Below, in pieces: positions 54,001 through 60,000 of a stretch of DNA of 64,000 nt. Numbering within the stretch: position 1 is the first letter of the stretch; the number at the start of each line of letters is the position of its first letter. Position numbers: made by a program. This DNA comes from Pecten maximus (taxonomy: Eukaryota): assembly GCF_902652985.1 (NCBI RefSeq), contig NW_022983034.1:1-64000 (forward strand), in the 5' to 3' direction.

Positions 54001-57000
54001 CCCTGTTAAACATAAATATTACCTAAACTGAAGTATATATATTTGTAATCTATGCAACCTTTGCAATTTAAATACAGCCGTGAAGTATGAGTATTCTGTA
54101 ACGGATGTTACCTGATGACGAAGACAACGTATCCATTGACAACACGTGTCCTCCTCATACGGGAAAGACGATCGAATTATACTGCCACCACCACAACGCC
54201 TTATGCTGCGTTCTTCGCGTGTCTCTGTTACATAGAACTTTCAAGGATGTCAATAGCATTGACGATACTACAAAGTCGTTCCCGTTTGATTTTATAGAAT
54301 ATGTGTTTAGCAAGATGAGGGACGAGTCAAAAACGATTGTTGAAGAGGACGAAAACAAACTGGCCACTCTAATCGCCGATTGCCAGACAGTGACCAATAA
54401 TGTTGCTGCGGTGATCAAGAAAGCGAAAGATAAGCTTGACGACCTCCACCGTAGTTTTCAAACCGAGCTTGACGTGACATACCAACGTCATAAAGATAGT
54501 CTAAATGATCGATTACACACCAAGAAGATATTCCATGCGAACGTGGAGAATACCAACCAGCTAAAGGTGGTGATTAAAGAACGATTTTATGACAGTCAGA
54601 CGTTTATTGCAATGGAACAATCCAAAATACAACTTACAAAACACGTGCGACGTTTACAATAGAGGACCAACGACAAACACTTTTGAACTAAATCTTACGT
54701 ATGACGACTTATTAGAGAAAGTCATTAACGTGATGACAACTGTCTGAGGATTAGATGTCTGCTCTTTCTTGTCATTGTCCTCGTACGACTCCCTCACCGA
54801 GACAGTTCGTGTGGACTGGAGATCCGTCGCTGCTCAATTCTGTTCAGAAATTTTCTATCAGAGGGGCAGAGACTCCATGGCTAACACGAGGAATGTTTAT
54901 TAAAGGCGACGGTCTTATTTTTCCGGACTTTAACATCTAAAGACCGTACGATGATAACTTAGACTATATAAGACATTACGATGTAGAAATACATTTTATT
55001 GTGCTCTTACAGTTTTCAAATTGTGCAAAATATCTAATCTTTGAAAGAGGATTAAAATACCGTTGTTGAAGAGCAATGTACATAACAGATGCAGTATAAG
55101 GTATTCCATTCAAGAATTCACTAATCGATATCCGGGACAATTCACGAGGCTCAAGCATTTACCAAAGTTGATAACTTTTTCTCGGCGTACAGACACAAAC
55201 TATGTGAACTAATTTTTAAAAATTAGTTAAAAAATGGATGATAAATACCTCTCATTTTATTTCGGCACAAAACTTTCCTTAGCTACACAATTTGACATAA
55301 AAATAAAGTTAAATATTCCGATAAATTATTCAGATTTTGAATGTTGCGTAGCTCGACATGCTACAATTAGCATTTAGAATTATTCGGATTTATAATCAAC
55401 AATCAGAACATGAATTTTAAGTAGCGCGATTTACGACATTCAACATCTAGAATCATTTAAAATTTAAATGTTGTGAACCTCGACTATTTTTGAGCATCGT
55501 AAAAAGTATTGAGACACCATATCTATGCCAGTAATACCGATTCACCTGCGTTGACTTCTACAAAAAACAAAACCCTTAGCACTGAAACGAGGTGTACAAA
55601 GTCCAGAGTAGGTGTATACACAATCTGTTCTTAGACGAAACGGTGTAAGTATCCATATATAGGCATTTTTCAGCATAATAGATGTTGGATGTCTGTTCTA
55701 CTTTTGTTTTTATATATTGTGTAAGAAAAACTAAATAATAAGATTGTATATGTAATCAACAACAGCATAAACTGAAAGTAAATTCATTCTCACGGTTTCT
55801 ACTGAGGACCGAAATCGCGTTTGTTTGCACACACATGTACAACGTGTTTTGTTTTATATGACGTCTTAGATAAGATTAAAGTATTTCCATTGTGATGTAC
55901 GTATATGTGTACCGTTGTTGAACAGTTTCTGTACCGGAGGTGGATACCACACAAGAACGATCTGCTTTTCATGAAGATGCATCGTTATATTAATTAATTT
56001 ATATTTATACTCAAGCTTTATGCATTTGTTTACTGATTACACACTCATTAGTCGATTTAGATCAAATAGCTAATGCTAGAGCACAAAACAATTTCCGTAA
56101 CGTATATGAAGTAGTATGCAGTGACTTGAATTTATTTATTTCTCGTAAAACACCAATTGTAGAAATCATATGAAACATTTCAATGTAGTTAAACCAATCA
56201 CTGGTCACAAAACTTGTACACTTCAAACGCCACGTTTTCCTGCAATGACGTCACAATGAGCTCCTGTCTTGTTGGATGGAGAACTACAGCGTACGGTTGA
56301 GTGATTCCACACATTCTTGGGAGAAGGACTCTCTCCTTTGAGCCGTCATGTGATATCAGGTATATGTCTCCCGACTCCATTCCACACACGTATACATTAC
56401 CATCCTGGTCAACAACGATTCCTCGTGGCCCTTTGATACCTTTACACATATGCCGGAACACTTCCTTCCCATCATGTGACCGACATACGATGACATCTTC
56501 ATCGCTGTGGTAAAGGAGTCCATTTGGTGATGCGGCCACGTACAGGTTGTTACCGCAATAAGGTAGAGAGGGTACCTATTTAAAGTCTGATGTTAAAATC
56601 TCGACAGAACCTTTAGTCCCGGTCAGTATCTTATCTCCCAGAGTATCTATACCCCATTGATTTGGATAACTTCTTATACTGTCGACAGTGGTAAGGACAC
56701 CATCCCGAAATGTACACCTAATGACTGACCCATTTGTCTGGGTCATTAGTAACTCATTCGGTTCAAATCCACGTGTGATATCAATAGGACGGTTATCCAC
56801 ATCATAATGCCTGATATACTCATAGCGATCATCAAACAGTAAAAGTTTTTTTTAGTACTGGAGTCAGAAGCGAGTAGACCTTCTCCTTCAATAAATACCC
56901 CTCCTGTCAGCCATGGAGTCATTGACCCACCGATGGAACCTTTATGTACAGACTTGACCAGAGATAAAGACCCAGTCCACACGTCTATACGAGGCGATAT

Positions 57001-60000
57001 TGACGAAGATGGAACTGCCACGTGTCCTACATCACTCAACATGTCCGAGGAGGACGTAGATTCGGAAAACGATGTCACGGACGATGTTGCCTGGAGTGTG
57101 TCAATGATTTGTCTGATAGATGTGAGGGAGTCATGTGATGACGATGACAATGAAGAGGAGACTTCTAATCTTCCCACAGTTGTCATCACGTTGACGACCT
57201 TCTCTAATACGTCGTCATACCCGATCTTCAATTCAAAAGTATTGTACGCTGACCGCTCTCGAAGACGATTACCAGAAAATGACCAGTAATGTGGCCATGA
57301 TGATCAAGAAAGCGAAAGATAAGCTGGATGATCTCCACCAACGTTTTCAAACGGGTCAGACGTAACATACCGACGTCATCAAGATAGTCTACATGAACGC
57401 TTACGCACTAATAGGATATTTCAAGCAAACATTGAAAACACCAACCAACTGGTGAGGGTGGTCAAAGAAAAAAGTCCCGACGTTGATACATTTATTGTAA
57501 CGGAACAATCCAAGACACAACTTCTGAGACACATGCGGCGTTTACAGCAGAAGACTGGAGACAAACACAACACATTTGAATTGAAGATGATATATGACGA
57601 CGTATTAGAAGTCATCAACGTGATGACAACTGTAGGAAGATTAGAAGTCTCCTCTTCATTGTCATCGTCATCACATGACTCCCTCACATCTATCAGACAA
57701 ATCATTGACACACTCCAGGCCACATCGTCCGTGACATCGTTTTCCGAATCAACGTCCTCCTCGGACATGCTGAGTGATGTAGGACACGTGGCAGTTCCAT
57801 ATTCATCAGTAGCGCCTCGTATTGACGTGTGGACTGGGTCTTTATCTCTGGTCAAGTCTGTACATAAAGGTTCCATCGGTGGGTCAATGACTCCATGGCT
57901 GACAGGAGGGGTATTTATTGAAGGAGAGGGTCTACTCGTTATAAACTTCCAAAACAAACAACTCTTACTGTTTGATGATAGCTATGAGTATATCAGGCAT
58001 TATGATGTGGATAACCATCCTATTGATATCACACGTGGATTTGAACCGAATGAGTTACTGATGACCCAGATGGGTAGGTCAGTCATTAGGTGTACATTTC
58101 GGGATGGTGTCCTTACCACTGTCGGCAGGATAAGTAGTTATCTCAGTCAATGGGGTATAGATACTCTGGGAGATAAGATACTGACCGGGACTATAGGTTG
58201 TGTCGAGTTTTAACATCAGACTTTAAACAAGTAGCGTCTATACCTAAACGCAGTAATAGTACGTTCGTTGCCGCATCACCAAATGGACTCTTTTACCACA
58301 AAGACGAAGACGTCATCGTATGTCGGTCACTTGATGGGAAGGAAGTGTTCCGGCATATGTGTAAAGGTATCAAAGAGCCACGAGGAATTGTTGTTGACCA
58401 GGATGGTAATGTATACGTGTGTGGAATGGAGTCGAGAGACATACACCTGATATCACATGACGGCTCAAAGGAGGGAGTCCTCTCAAGAATGTGTGGAATC
58501 ACTCGACCGTACGCCATACTTCACCATCCAAAAAGACAGGAGATCATTGTGACGTCAAGGCAGGAAAACGTGGTCTTTGAAGTGTACAAGTTTTGAGACC
58601 AGTGATTGGTGTAACTACACTGATTATCAAAATGTTTTCTGTGATTTCCACGATGTCTGTTTCATGAGGAATTAAATTAATTAATGTCACTTCATACTGT
58701 TTCATATAAGTTACGGGAATTGTTTGTGCACTATCATTAATCATTAAACCCTAACCGACTAACCAGTGTGTGATAACCAAAGGAAAGGGAAACATTAACA
58801 TTATGGGTGCGCGATAGGGTATCCCACCCAAGGACTCTCAGTGTTTGATGTCCGGTTCAAGCTATGGGCACTAACACGTACAGCCATTAGCGAGAACTAC
58901 TTTCAAATGTCGATACTAAACTGCAGTCTTCGTATTTATGTGAATATAAATCAAATGTATAAATGTTATCCTATACCAGTGAGTATAGATATACGATGTC
59001 GTGTAGGAGAGAATAGACAGACAACTGCTTATTTTCTACTAACATGTACTTAACTCCTCCGATTGTTAACCTGACGAAATATTTTTTCCTCTCATGTACC
59101 GTGAAACGTAATTAAGTTTGACACGATATCTATTTCTGTGTGTATTTCTATAACTCATCATTTCCCTGTATCAACATAGAAAGTTTCTTTTGTTTACGCG
59201 TTGATAATGGGTGCAGTAGTTGCCCCATTTCGTAAATACTGAGCGCACATGTATACTTGTTACAGGAAAGTGAGAGAACAATACATCTGATAATTTAAAT
59301 AGGTCATTTAGAAGAACAATTAAGATCTTATATTCACAGATAATAAAACAGAGGTTCTATATGTCCGTGCGTCATAATAACCCATCTCAGGTTGGGTTGG
59401 AATAACACGGATACGTTTTGAAAAGCTGATTTCAACTAAAATCAGTTCTCAGTATAGCTAATTTTTATTATTTACTGGAAGGTTAGTTCGGAATGATATT
59501 CCGTAAGTGAAGGGTGGGTTGAGATTTCAAATTCGTAATCGGTATACACATTTTTGTTTAAGTTACCGTCACAGGTACAATTTAAGCAATTGAAATAATT
59601 AGTTAATATAAGATTATGAATTGTCTATACACGTTACATGTACTTGTCAGTGCTGTGTTGTAATGTGGAAAGTACCTTGTCTAATTTAGTAACGTAGTGT
59701 CATGTACGTGTAGTCCATACTGTGTATGTCCATATTTGGTGGTGTTTACGACTTATATGTAAATTAGGGTATGAAAGTGTAAGAAATCGTGAAAGAGTGA
59801 GAGCGAGAATAGTAAAACCCGTGGGTTATGGTAGAACGCTGCAGTAGCCATTCATAGGTCGGTAGGACATATCCTCTGGGGTCCGGTGACCAATTATGTA
59901 ACAGACATGTGTACAGACTTACCGTTTTACCAGACATAACAGTCTTGGAAGGTATGTTATCCTGACAAATATAATAGAATGACTAATAATTATAACTTTA

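What the first reader, a model, noticed from the sequence alone, without database searches (positions are those of the whole stretch)
55610..58605. Back-to-back inverted gene halves: a complex rearrangement forming a ~1-kb inverted repeat
A copy-5-type upstream fragment (about 55620-55990) abuts an inverted 3' gene half carrying a copy-4-type 3' flank. That half joins, through three extra bases (acg, 57246-48), a forward half that begins like copy 7. The halves form an imperfect inverted repeat of linker plus propeller (56198-57245 versus about 57568-58605) around a ~320-bp spacer. Read-through from the orphan upstream fragment would give long dsRNA homologous to the whole family, a possible endo-siRNA source regulating the array (inference). 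A misassembly is also possible.
Basis: partly seen in the sequence, partly recalled or inferred. Interest (0 to 1): 0.65.

Follow-up and report, generated by a model that had tools for sequence, protein, structure and literature searches.

The report
Inverted pseudogene halves in scallop TRIM array
Inside a tandem array of scallop-like TRIM-NHL immune-type genes, one unit has had its front half replaced by a backwards copy of another family member's rear half, leaving two decaying gene halves that form a 1.2-kb imperfect inverted repeat; it looks like ordinary rearrangement debris, not a shown regulator.

Summary
The window is a ~7-kb-period tandem array of RING/B-box/coiled-coil/NHL-propeller genes whose nearest named relatives are pectinid (scallop) proteins. 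In the eighth unit, about 1.42 kb (putative first-exon end to mid coiled coil) is replaced by 1,259 nt. That insert is a 10-nt filler (55990-55999), an inverted 3' half plus 3' flank of a copy-4-lineage paralog (56000-57245), and "acg" (57246-57248). The unit's own 3' part follows (57249 onward, copy-7-like at first). The arms (56036-57245 versus 57567-58774) are 88.6% complementary around a 321-nt spacer.

The arms fall in different paralog clades and share only 1 exclusive variant, so this is not a fresh fold-back of one copy. Both carry frame-breaking lesions.

The upstream fragment is not an orphan. It lies in place, colinear with the copy-4/copy-5 spacer.

A read-through RNA would fold into a long hairpin, but nothing here shows transcription. 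A 2025 survey found no dedicated endo-siRNA pathway in molluscs. Misassembly cannot be excluded without reads, although the junction anatomy argues against the usual artefacts.

Verdict: a real-looking, ordinary complex rearrangement of low interest.

The parts
55573..55989 (+). Upstream (putative promoter and start of a non-coding first exon) fragment of array unit 8, of the copy-5 type. It is cut at copy-1 coordinate 2017, before the putative splice donor.
   Evidence: 82% identical to 34886-35247 against 65-67% for the other copies. It shares copy 5's 29-nt insertion and 21-nt deletion and continues past copy 5's own deletion. It is colinear with the copy-4/copy-5 spacer. It reads CCGGAGGTGG where the 8 other units read CCGGAAGTGG.
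55990..55999 (.). Junction 1 filler, 10 nt (ttaattaatt), homologous to neither side.
   Evidence: The same 10-mer occurs in reverse complement in copy-1-type 3' flanks at 4877, 38124 and 58675. In all there are 5 matches against 1.1 expected, and 1 of 100 shuffles reaches 5. It is low-complexity, so a templated origin is not shown.
56000..56197 (-). 3' flank of the inverted half, copy-4 type.
   Evidence: Homology to copy 4 runs to 33070 and 56000, while the other copies stop at 56036-56071. In the flank windows it is 86% identical to copy 4 and at most 70% to the others. Alignment.
56198..57245 (-). Inverted 3' gene half (INV): end of coiled coil, Ser-rich linker and NHL-type propeller, equal to copy-1 coordinates 3759-4807 (ORF residues ~348-696). 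Pseudogene; left arm of the repeat.
   Evidence: In-frame TAG at 56576-56578 and a 2-nt insertion at ~56854-56855 beside an 8-base homopolymer. INV+c4 clade 95/97.
57246..57248 (.). Junction 2 filler, 'acg'.
   Evidence: No homology to the paralogs on either side. The G at 57248 could belong to the forward half, as in copy 2.
57249..57566 (+). Single-copy spacer: the coiled-coil part of the forward half (copy-1 coordinates 3440-3758) that the inverted half lacks.
   Evidence: 1-nt deletion after 57351.
57567..58605 (+). Forward 3' gene half (FWD), right arm of the repeat: linker and propeller of unit 8. Pseudogene.
   Evidence: 1-nt deletion after 58207 and a premature TGA at 58594-58596, with the family stop at 58603-58605. 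FWD+c7 clade 100/98 in the 5' partition.
58606..58774 (+). Proximal 3' flank of FWD (copy-1/5 type), the weakly complementary outer end of the repeat.
   Evidence: The arm alignment extends to 58774 and 56036. In the last flank windows the arms are only about 50-70% identical.

Best explanation
This is a genuine-looking complex rearrangement within one unit (the eighth) of a tandem array of intronless-CDS TRIM-NHL-like genes in a pectinid-like bivalve.

About 1,422 nt of the unit were lost (copy-1 coordinates 2018-3439). That stretch held the end of a putative non-coding first exon and its donor, the start codon, the RING, both B-boxes and the first part of the coiled coil. It was replaced by 1,259 nt: a 10-nt filler, a 1,246-nt inverted copy of the 3' half plus ~200 nt of 3' flank of a copy-4-lineage paralog, and a 3-nt filler.

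The most likely mechanism (inferred) is a single repair or replication event with two template switches or end-joinings. A broken or stalled end in unit 8 was extended on the opposite strand of a nearby paralog and then rejoined unit 8. This is the FoSTeS/MMBIR type, or an inverted templated insertion at a break.

The result is two 5'-truncated gene halves joined head to head. Both are now decaying pseudogenes. The 1.2-kb, 88.6% inverted repeat is a by-product with no demonstrated function.
For: Shown:
- Array structure and unit coordinates.
- Both junctions lack homology and carry short fillers.
- The upstream fragment and the forward half are colinear remains of one unit. The spacer has three blocks colinear with the copy-4/copy-5 spacer. 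The replaced length is 1,259 nt against 1,422 nt expected.
- The arms belong to different clades: INV+c4 95/97, FWD+c7 100/98 in the 5' partition and 92/94 overall.
- Exclusive shared variants over 1,130 ungapped columns: c4-INV 15, c7-FWD 7, INV-FWD 1.
- Lesions: INV has a TAG and a 2-nt insertion. FWD has two 1-nt deletions and a premature TGA.
- Pseudogenes are common in the array. 3 of 7 full-length copies (c3, c5, c7) have frame-breaking indels and 4 of 7 are intact.
- A third, older fragment (54102-55001, 78% nt) lies in the same spacer.
- Family identity: RING and B-box in Pfam. Profile hits to TRIM3, TRIM28 and TRIM25 RBCC and to NHL propellers (PknD 1rwi at E = 1.8e-12, TRIM2 NHL at 3e-6). 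Scallop 'TRIM2/3-like' and 'Midline-1-like' relatives.

Inferred: the template-switch or end-joining mechanism and the lack of function.
Against: - No reads are available, so neither junction is independently verified.
- A search with the junction-spanning 185-aa frame found no independent record. Its only hit was a Pecten maximus family fragment that does not cover the junction.
- The geometry (arm, 321-nt spacer, arm, with the inverted arm ending at 3759 and the forward one starting at 3440) is what a fold-back on a single copy gives. An old fold-back followed by gene conversion is therefore not excluded.
- In the copy-1 window starting at 4259, FWD is closer to INV (91.3%) than to any other copy (at most 85.9%). 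INV is about equally close to c4 (92.0%) and FWD (91.3%) there. In the window starting at 4334, each arm is the other's best match (85.6% against at most 81%). This hints at some exchange between the arms.
- INV differs from present copy 4 by about 9%, so the true donor may be a copy not in the window.
- Codon-position counts of private variants do not separate the halves from intact copies: INV 10/3/9, FWD 1/7/8, c4 7/7/10. They give no positive sign of neutrality.
- Some 1-2-nt indels lie next to homopolymers and could be sequencing errors.
- Absence of function is not shown.
Confidence: 0.6

Rival explanations
1. Hairpin-RNA locus. Transcription from the retained unit-8 promoter fragment reads through antisense INV and sense FWD. 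The RNA folds into a ~1.2-kb imperfect duplex and is processed into small RNAs, or is otherwise sensed or edited, to regulate the TRIM-NHL array.
For: - The hypothetical + strand RNA 55991-58800 folds at -1986.5 kcal/mol against about -714 to -735 for 3 mononucleotide shuffles. 1,108 of its 1,199 pairs are arm-to-arm.
- The arms have 13 perfect runs of 21 nt or more, the longest 104 nt.
- 522 of 1,028 INV 21-mers match at least one of the copy 1-7 coding regions exactly.
- The fragment keeps the block conserved upstream of all units but lacks the putative splice donor, so transcripts would run on (inference).
- Precedents elsewhere: Drosophila hpRNAs born within gene-family clusters (PMC10317233, passages). 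Arabidopsis PAI1-PAI4 inverted repeat driven by a heterologous upstream promoter (PMC3203196, passages).
Against: - There are no expression or small-RNA data.
- A survey of mollusc Dicer/Ago genes and small RNAs reports no evidence of a dedicated endo-siRNA pathway, and notes that Dicer processing of long dsRNA was elusive despite many inverted repeats (PMC12479628, passages).
- The conserved CCGGAAGTGG is CCGGAGGTGG in this fragment only (1 of 9 units).
- AATAAA lies on the + strand at 56890, before the second arm.
- The arms show no co-evolution (1 exclusive shared variant) and only 88.6% complementarity.
- Rfam finds nothing in the window (0 matches).
Confidence: 0.05
2. Assembly artefact. 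A chimeric long read or a misjoin placed an inverted fragment inside unit 8, and the true genome has an ordinary unit here.
For: - Tandem arrays of 85-98% identical 7-kb units are hard to assemble.
- No independent record of the junction was found.
- The protein collection holds this contig only once: the window's own proteins show 1 contig each.
Against: All of this is inference from anatomy.
- Palindromic chimeric reads give near-identical arms without a spacer. These arms differ at 11.4% of columns and sit in different clades.
- Overlap-based misjoins happen within shared sequence. Both joins here are between non-homologous points with fillers.
- An artefact would need two wrong joins 1.25 kb apart.
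- INV matches no other copy in the window better than 90.75%, so it is not a misplaced piece of a copy seen here.
- Both halves carry substitution-type stops, as expected of long-standing pseudogenes.
Confidence: 0.17
3. An old fold-back (hairpin-primed) inverted duplication of unit 8's own 3' half. Gene conversion then made the forward arm copy-7/copy-1-like, or the inverted arm copy-4-like.
For: - The arm-spacer-arm geometry with a 321-nt single-copy spacer is the classical fold-back product. I saw PMC3907307 in the search listing and the start of its abstract only.
- Mosaic similarity along both arms shows that conversion is active in the array.
- In the copy-1 window starting at 4334, each arm is the other's best match (85.6% against at most 81%). 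In the window starting at 4259, FWD is nearest to INV (91.3% against at most 85.9%), although INV is marginally nearer to c4 (92.0%).
Against: - INV-FWD share 1 exclusive variant, against 15 for INV-c4.
- INV carries copy 4's divergent 3' flank (86% against 50-70% to FWD). This would require conversion of the flank as well.
- A fold-back does not explain junction 1 or the loss of 1.42 kb.
Confidence: 0.1
4. INV is a 5'-truncated retrocopy of a copy-4-like mRNA, inserted antisense into unit 8 with a target-site deletion.
For: - INV is a 3' gene portion that ends about 200 nt after the stop and is followed, in its own sense, by an A/T-only 10-mer (AATTAATTAA).
- 5' truncation with a few extra bases at the 5' junction is typical of such insertions (recalled knowledge).
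Against: - The 10-mer is not a poly(A) run (6 A in 10).
- No target-site duplication is visible by eye; no dedicated search was run.
- The canonical signals in copy 4 lie 65 and 227 nt after the stop, not 10-30 nt before the INV end at about 200 nt.
- The coding region has no introns, so intron loss cannot be used as a test.
Confidence: 0.06

Closest known systems
Complex rearrangements with inverted segments made by replication template switching or break repair (FoSTeS/MMBIR, fold-back inverted duplications with spacer, inverted templated insertions at breaks)
   Same: An extra inverted copy next to a direct one, a short single-copy spacer (321 nt), two breakpoint junctions in cis and short non-homologous fillers (3 and 10 nt). 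For the literature I saw only the search listing and abstract starts of PMC3907307, PMC10766183 and PMC11724301.
   Different: It is small (1.25 kb) and lies inside a paralog array. The inverted arm comes from a different paralog lineage than the direct arm. It came with a 1.42-kb loss, so the net effect is a replacement and not a gain.
Drosophila hairpin-RNA (hpRNA) loci that arise from inverted gene fragments within or near their target gene families (hp-pncr009/825-Oak, Nmy/Tmy, Dsim-hp58)
   Same: An inverted repeat made of a fragment of a family member, lying inside the tandem family it could target, with many perfect 21-mers to paralogs (PMC10317233 passages).
   Different: No primary transcript and no Dicer-dependent 21-nt siRNAs are shown. 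The host clade reportedly lacks a dedicated siRNA pathway (PMC12479628). The arms are 88.6% complementary and not near-perfect.
Arabidopsis Ws PAI1-PAI4 inverted repeat
   Same: A rearranged inverted repeat of two members of a small gene family, fused to an upstream promoter that reads through it. The transcribed repeat signals silencing of unlinked family members (PMC3203196 passages).
   Different: PAI1-PAI4 is tail-to-tail with near-identical whole genes and works through plant small-RNA/DNA-methylation machinery. Here the halves are head-to-head, truncated and diverged, in an animal, with no evidence of transcription.
TRIM-NHL proteins (TRIM2, TRIM3, TRIM71, Brat, Thin)
   Same: RING, two B-boxes, coiled coil and a C-terminal NHL-type six-bladed propeller. 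Scallop relatives are named TRIM2/3-like.
   Different: This is a lineage-specific, tandemly amplified, intronless-CDS family with a Ser-rich linker. The window's own propeller reaches only sub-threshold Pfam scores (SGL 24.5 bits against a cut-off of 26.3).

Membership tests
hpRNA / endo-siRNA-generating inverted repeat | Inverted repeat whose arms are homologous to protein-coding target genes | tested here: met
   The arms are 88.6% complementary over 1,218 columns. 522 of 1,028 INV 21-mers match copy 1-7 coding regions exactly.
hpRNA / endo-siRNA-generating inverted repeat | Both arms transcribed on one RNA from a defined promoter to a defined 3' end | not testable with these tools
   No RNA data. 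Indirect signs are mixed. The upstream block is retained, but its conserved motif is altered in this unit only. AATAAA lies at 56890 before the second arm.
hpRNA / endo-siRNA-generating inverted repeat | Dicer-dependent ~21-nt duplex small RNAs from the arms, loaded into an siRNA-class Argonaute | not testable with these tools
   No small-RNA data. PMC12479628 (passages) reports no dedicated siRNA pathway in the molluscs surveyed.
Fold-back / template-switch inverted duplication | Inverted and direct copies separated by a short single-copy spacer, with junctions showing microhomology or short insertions | tested here: met
   321-nt spacer. Fillers of 3 nt and 10 nt, with no extended homology at either junction.
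Fold-back / template-switch inverted duplication | Both arms copied from the same template, so they are each other's closest relatives | tested here: not met
   INV+c4 clade 95/97 and FWD+c7 clade 92/94. 1 exclusive INV-FWD variant against 15 for INV-c4. A switch onto a paralogous template remains compatible.
Processed retrocopy | Poly(A) tail at the 3' end, target-site duplication, loss of introns | tested here: inconclusive
   There is only an A/T 10-mer at the 3' end, and no duplication is visible by eye (no dedicated search). The coding region is intronless in all copies, so intron loss cannot be scored.
TRIM-NHL (RBCC plus NHL propeller) family | N-terminal RING, B-box(es) and coiled coil | tested here: met
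   Pfam zf-B_box 26.7 bits (cut-off 24.1), zf-RING_UBOX 25.9 (25.2) and zf-C3HC4 24.7 (21) for copy 1. The profile matches TRIM28 RBCC over positions 12-291 (E = 1.4e-22) and TRIM25 over 1-313.
TRIM-NHL (RBCC plus NHL propeller) family | C-terminal NHL-repeat beta-propeller | tested here: met
   Profile of 23 family members against PDB: PknD NHL propeller 1rwi at E = 1.8e-12, Pizza propellers at about 1e-10, Thin NHL at 6e-7 and TRIM2 NHL at 3e-6. Pfam NHL matched in 9 of 23 members and SGL in 13 of 23. Copy 1 alone is sub-threshold. No structure model could be made (not accepted).

The most novel reading that the evidence does not exclude
The locus is a young, mollusc-specific hairpin-RNA gene. 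The retained unit-8 promoter drives a ~2.8-kb transcript whose 1.2-kb imperfect duplex is diced, ADAR-edited or sensed as dsRNA. That would tune the expression of a fast-evolving TRIM-NHL immune-type array. It would also be a first endogenous long-dsRNA regulator in a clade where endo-siRNAs are reported to be absent.
Probability: 0.04. Interest if true: 0.7.

Novelty: new member of a known kind. Interest (0 to 1): 0.2.

Why it matters
As it stands, this is a well-resolved example of how tandem immune-type gene arrays decay and reshuffle. It is a two-junction replacement that leaves head-to-head pseudogene halves. Its main uses are as an annotation warning (two pseudogene fragments, not a gene) and as a marker for checking the assembly of this array.

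It would matter more only if the repeat were transcribed. It would then be a natural long-dsRNA source in a mollusc. That would bear on the open question of what molluscs do with endogenous dsRNA, given the report that they lack a dedicated siRNA pathway (PMC12479628).

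Tried and rejected
1. Arm-to-arm gene conversion or co-evolution was rejected overall: 1 exclusive shared variant of 1,130 ungapped columns. Two windows still show the arms unusually close to each other.

2. Codon-position counts of private variants, used as a test of neutrality, were uninformative. Intact copies show the same flat pattern.

3. I looked for an independent record of junction 2 through the protein collection, using the 185-aa frame that crosses it. 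The one hit, of 183 candidates, was a Pecten maximus 268-aa model. It is 90% identical to copy 1 residues 161-421 and does not cover the junction. This is uninformative.

4. Rfam over the whole window gave 0 matches.

5. Tandem Repeats Finder on 52000-62000 gave 0 arrays.

6. Filler 1 as a templated insertion: the 10-mer recurs in reverse complement in copy-1-type 3' flanks. It is low-complexity, and 1 of 100 shuffles reaches the same count. Not claimed.

7. A structure prediction of the C-terminal domain was not accepted by the tool. I answered the propeller question with profile searches instead.

8. Pfam on five spacer ORFs: 4 of 5 gave no family, and one is a distant B-box fragment.

9. 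Literature. One search for hairpin RNA / endo-siRNA / inverted repeat / mollusc returned 76 papers holding at least 3 of the 4 terms. Of the 15 listed, no title describes a mollusc hpRNA locus. One search for TRIM / scallop / tandem duplication / expansion / NHL listed 12 of 177 papers, none on TRIM arrays in scallops. I make no wider claim of absence from print. Supplementary files were not seen.

10. The eukaryotic genome, read and transcript collections that could verify the junctions are not available here. That check stayed undone.

Full report
**What the window is.** The 64-kb window has no N and about 31-44% G+C per 2-kb window. It holds a head-to-tail array with a period of about 7 kb, all on the + strand. 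The units are:
- c1 1001-7000
- c2 8090-14332
- c3 15448-21243
- c4 28866-33263
- c5 34638-40267
- c6 41347-47346
- c7 48395-53377
- the disturbed unit studied here
- c9 from 61887 to the window's end

Each full unit carries one uninterrupted frame of about 690 codons.

Copy 1 has RING and B-box domains above Pfam's cut-offs. A profile of 23 family members matches TRIM3, TRIM28 and TRIM25 RBCC regions. In its C-terminal part it matches NHL-type propellers: PknD 1rwi at E = 1.8e-12, the Pizza designs, Thin, and TRIM2 NHL at 3e-6. Pfam NHL is found in 9 of 23 members and SGL in 13 of 23.

The nearest named proteins are pectinid: Mizuhopecten 'Midline-1-like' at 63%, and Argopecten 'TRIM2/3-like' at about 40%. 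A 268-aa Pecten maximus model is 90% identical to copy-1 residues 161-421. I did not try to identify the source beyond this.

Of the 7 full-length copies, 4 (c1, c2, c4, c6) keep the frame. The other 3 (c3, c5, c7) have frame-breaking indels.

**The observation.** It is confirmed.
- The repeat finder gives five colinear inverted blocks between 56180-57245 and 57567-58623, at 86-97%, with 321 nt between the inner ends.
- blastn gives one match of 1,219 nt at 88.7%, 56036-57245 against 58774-57567.
- A global alignment gives 1,079 of 1,218 columns identical, 121 mismatches and 7 gap events.
- The inverted half (INV) equals copy-1 coordinates 3759 to about 5010 on the minus strand. The forward half (FWD) starts at copy-1 coordinate 3440.
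- At junction 2, INV homology ends at 57245, 'acg' follows, and FWD homology starts at 57249.
- At junction 1, upstream homology ends at 55989, ten bases (55990-55999) match neither side, and copy-4-type homology begins at 56000.

**The paralog types.**
- The upstream fragment 55573-55944 is 82% identical to copy 5's upstream (34886-35247) and 65-67% to the others. It shares copy 5's 29-nt insertion and 21-nt deletion.
- INV is nearest to copy 4: 90.75% overall, and 95% in the last two coding windows. In the 3' flank it is 86% to copy 4 against at most 70% for the others. They share 15 exclusive variants and form a clade with 95/97 support, or 96/98 in the 3' partition.
- FWD begins copy-7-like (windows of 96.6-98.7%, 7 exclusive variants, clade 100/98 in the 5' partition). 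It becomes copy-1/5-like in the 3' flank.
- The arms are therefore not each other's relatives. They share 1 exclusive variant.

The upstream fragment is not an orphan.
- The c7-to-unit-8 spacer is colinear with the c4-to-c5 spacer in three blocks: 32864-33035 with 52201-52372, 33117-33461 with 52652-53008, and 34886-35247 with 55573-55944.
- The fragment lies about 160 nt from where unit 8's own upstream is expected, given the position of FWD.
- So the fragment and FWD are the two ends of a single unit.
- Between them, about 1,422 nt (copy-1 coordinates 2018-3439) were exchanged for 1,259 nt: filler, 1,246-nt INV, filler.
- The lost part held the start codon (copy-1 coordinate 2741), the RING, both B-boxes and the first part of the coiled coil.
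- It also held a block conserved in all other units that ends in GGAAAG|GTAAGG. I read this block as a non-coding first exon with its donor. That reading is inference, and the motif names are recalled, not tested.

**State of the halves.** Both are dead as coding sequence.
- INV has an in-frame TAG (56576-56578) and a 2-nt insertion at about 56854-56855, next to an 8-base homopolymer.
- FWD has 1-nt deletions after 57351 and 58207 and a premature TGA at 58594-58596.
- The small indels could partly be sequencing errors. The stops are substitutions.
- Codon-position counts of private variants are flat in all copies, intact ones included, so they say nothing either way.

**Most likely mechanism.** This is inferred. 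There are two junctions in cis. Neither lies in shared sequence, and each has a short filler. An extra inverted segment was copied from a paralog, and a comparable length was lost. This pattern fits a single repair or replication event with two template switches or end-joinings. Known types are FoSTeS/MMBIR and inverted templated insertion at a break. For these papers I saw only the listing and abstract starts.

A fold-back on unit 8 itself would give the same arm-spacer-arm geometry. It predicts sister arms, which is not what the sequences show. It survives only with later conversion of one arm including its flank. Conversion clearly operates in the array, because similarity is mosaic along both arms. 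In the copy-1 window starting at 4334 each arm is the other's best match, and in the window starting at 4259 FWD is nearest to INV while INV is marginally nearer to c4.

A 5'-truncated antisense retrocopy is a weaker rival. The 3' end has only an A/T 10-mer. No target duplication is visible by eye. No canonical signal is suitably placed.

**The dsRNA idea.** If a + strand RNA ran from 55991 to 58800, it would fold at -1986.5 kcal/mol, against about -714 to -735 for three mononucleotide shuffles, with 1,108 of 1,199 pairs between the arms. The arms hold 13 perfect runs of at least 21 nt. Also, 522 of 1,028 INV 21-mers match a copy 1-7 coding region exactly. So the capacity is there, and analogues exist: Drosophila hpRNAs inside gene-family clusters (PMC10317233, passages) and Arabidopsis PAI1-PAI4 (PMC3203196, passages).

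Against it:
- There are no expression data.
- The conserved CCGGAAGTGG upstream motif reads CCGGAGGTGG in this unit alone, 1 of 9.
- An AATAAA lies on the + strand at 56890, before the second arm.
- The arms do not co-evolve.
- Rfam finds nothing.
- A 2025 survey of mollusc Dicer/Ago genes and small-RNA libraries found no evidence of a dedicated endo-siRNA pathway. It remarks that long-dsRNA processing was elusive despite many inverted repeats (PMC12479628, passages).

I put this reading at about 5%.

**Artefact?** It cannot be excluded without reads, and no independent record of the junction exists in the collections I could search. The anatomy argues against the usual artefacts, by inference.
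- Palindromic chimeric reads give near-identical arms with no spacer.
- Overlap misjoins occur within shared sequence.
- This structure would need two wrong joins 1.25 kb apart.
- INV is not a displaced piece of any copy in the window, the best match being 90.75%.

I put the artefact reading at about 17%.

**Verdict.** The structural interpretation is supported and refined: it is a replacement within one unit, with arms of different paralog origin. The functional interpretation is unsupported. This is a new instance of a known kind of event, namely complex rearrangement debris in a tandem gene array. Interest is low unless transcription through both arms is shown.

Noticed in passing
window 54102-55001 (+): A third, older family fragment lies in the c7-to-unit-8 spacer, running from B-box 2 through the coiled coil into the linker. 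It is about 78% nt identical to every copy and has a 186-aa open frame (54102-54662), which is 64% aa identical to the Pecten maximus fragment model. A 48-nt piece of it (54219-54266) is repeated at 53896-53943 at 91.7%.
   Followed up: partly
window 13248-13976 (-); weaker remnants at 6574-6820 and 60375-60621: A 243-aa open frame on the minus strand in the c2-c3 spacer encodes a distant TRIM-like B-box1/B-box2 fragment, 34% aa identical to copy 1 residues 83-249. Other spacers keep degenerate copies at about 76% nt. The ancestral repeat unit may have held a second, convergently oriented TRIM-like gene.
   Followed up: partly
window 32864-35247 versus 52201-55944: The c4-to-c5 and c7-to-unit-8 spacers share three colinear blocks (about 80-83%) that the copy-1-type spacers lack. 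This suggests the array once grew by duplication of a two-unit block, with the gene bodies later homogenised differently.
   Followed up: partly
window ~35240-35247 (c5), copy-1 coordinates ~1976-2090: Copy 5 lacks about 115 nt that include the putative non-coding first exon and its donor. Its breakpoint is only about 40 nt from unit 8's junction 1 in family coordinates. Copy 5's coding region also has three 1-nt insertions.
   Followed up: partly
upstream blocks of all units, e.g. window ~1960-2080 in c1: A strongly conserved block, CCGGAAGTGG...GGAAAG|GTAAGG, lies about 700 nt upstream of each start codon in 8 units (only its first part is retained in c5). It looks like a core promoter motif plus a short 5' exon and donor. 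This is inference only, with no transcript data.
   Followed up: no
window 21243-28866: There are about 7.6 kb between c3 and c4 with no family gene. The edges match ordinary spacer sequence (21840-22041 with 60811-61012 at 96%; 27982-28871 with 61009-61896 at 89%). The interior has only short frames without Pfam matches.
   Followed up: no
window 17317-19900 (c3), 43065-45125 (c6), 49900-52201 (c7): c3 has 4-nt and 17-nt deletions and c7 has a 1-nt insertion, so both are probably pseudogenes or carry sequencing errors. c6 has an in-frame 30-nt deletion in the linker.
   Followed up: partly
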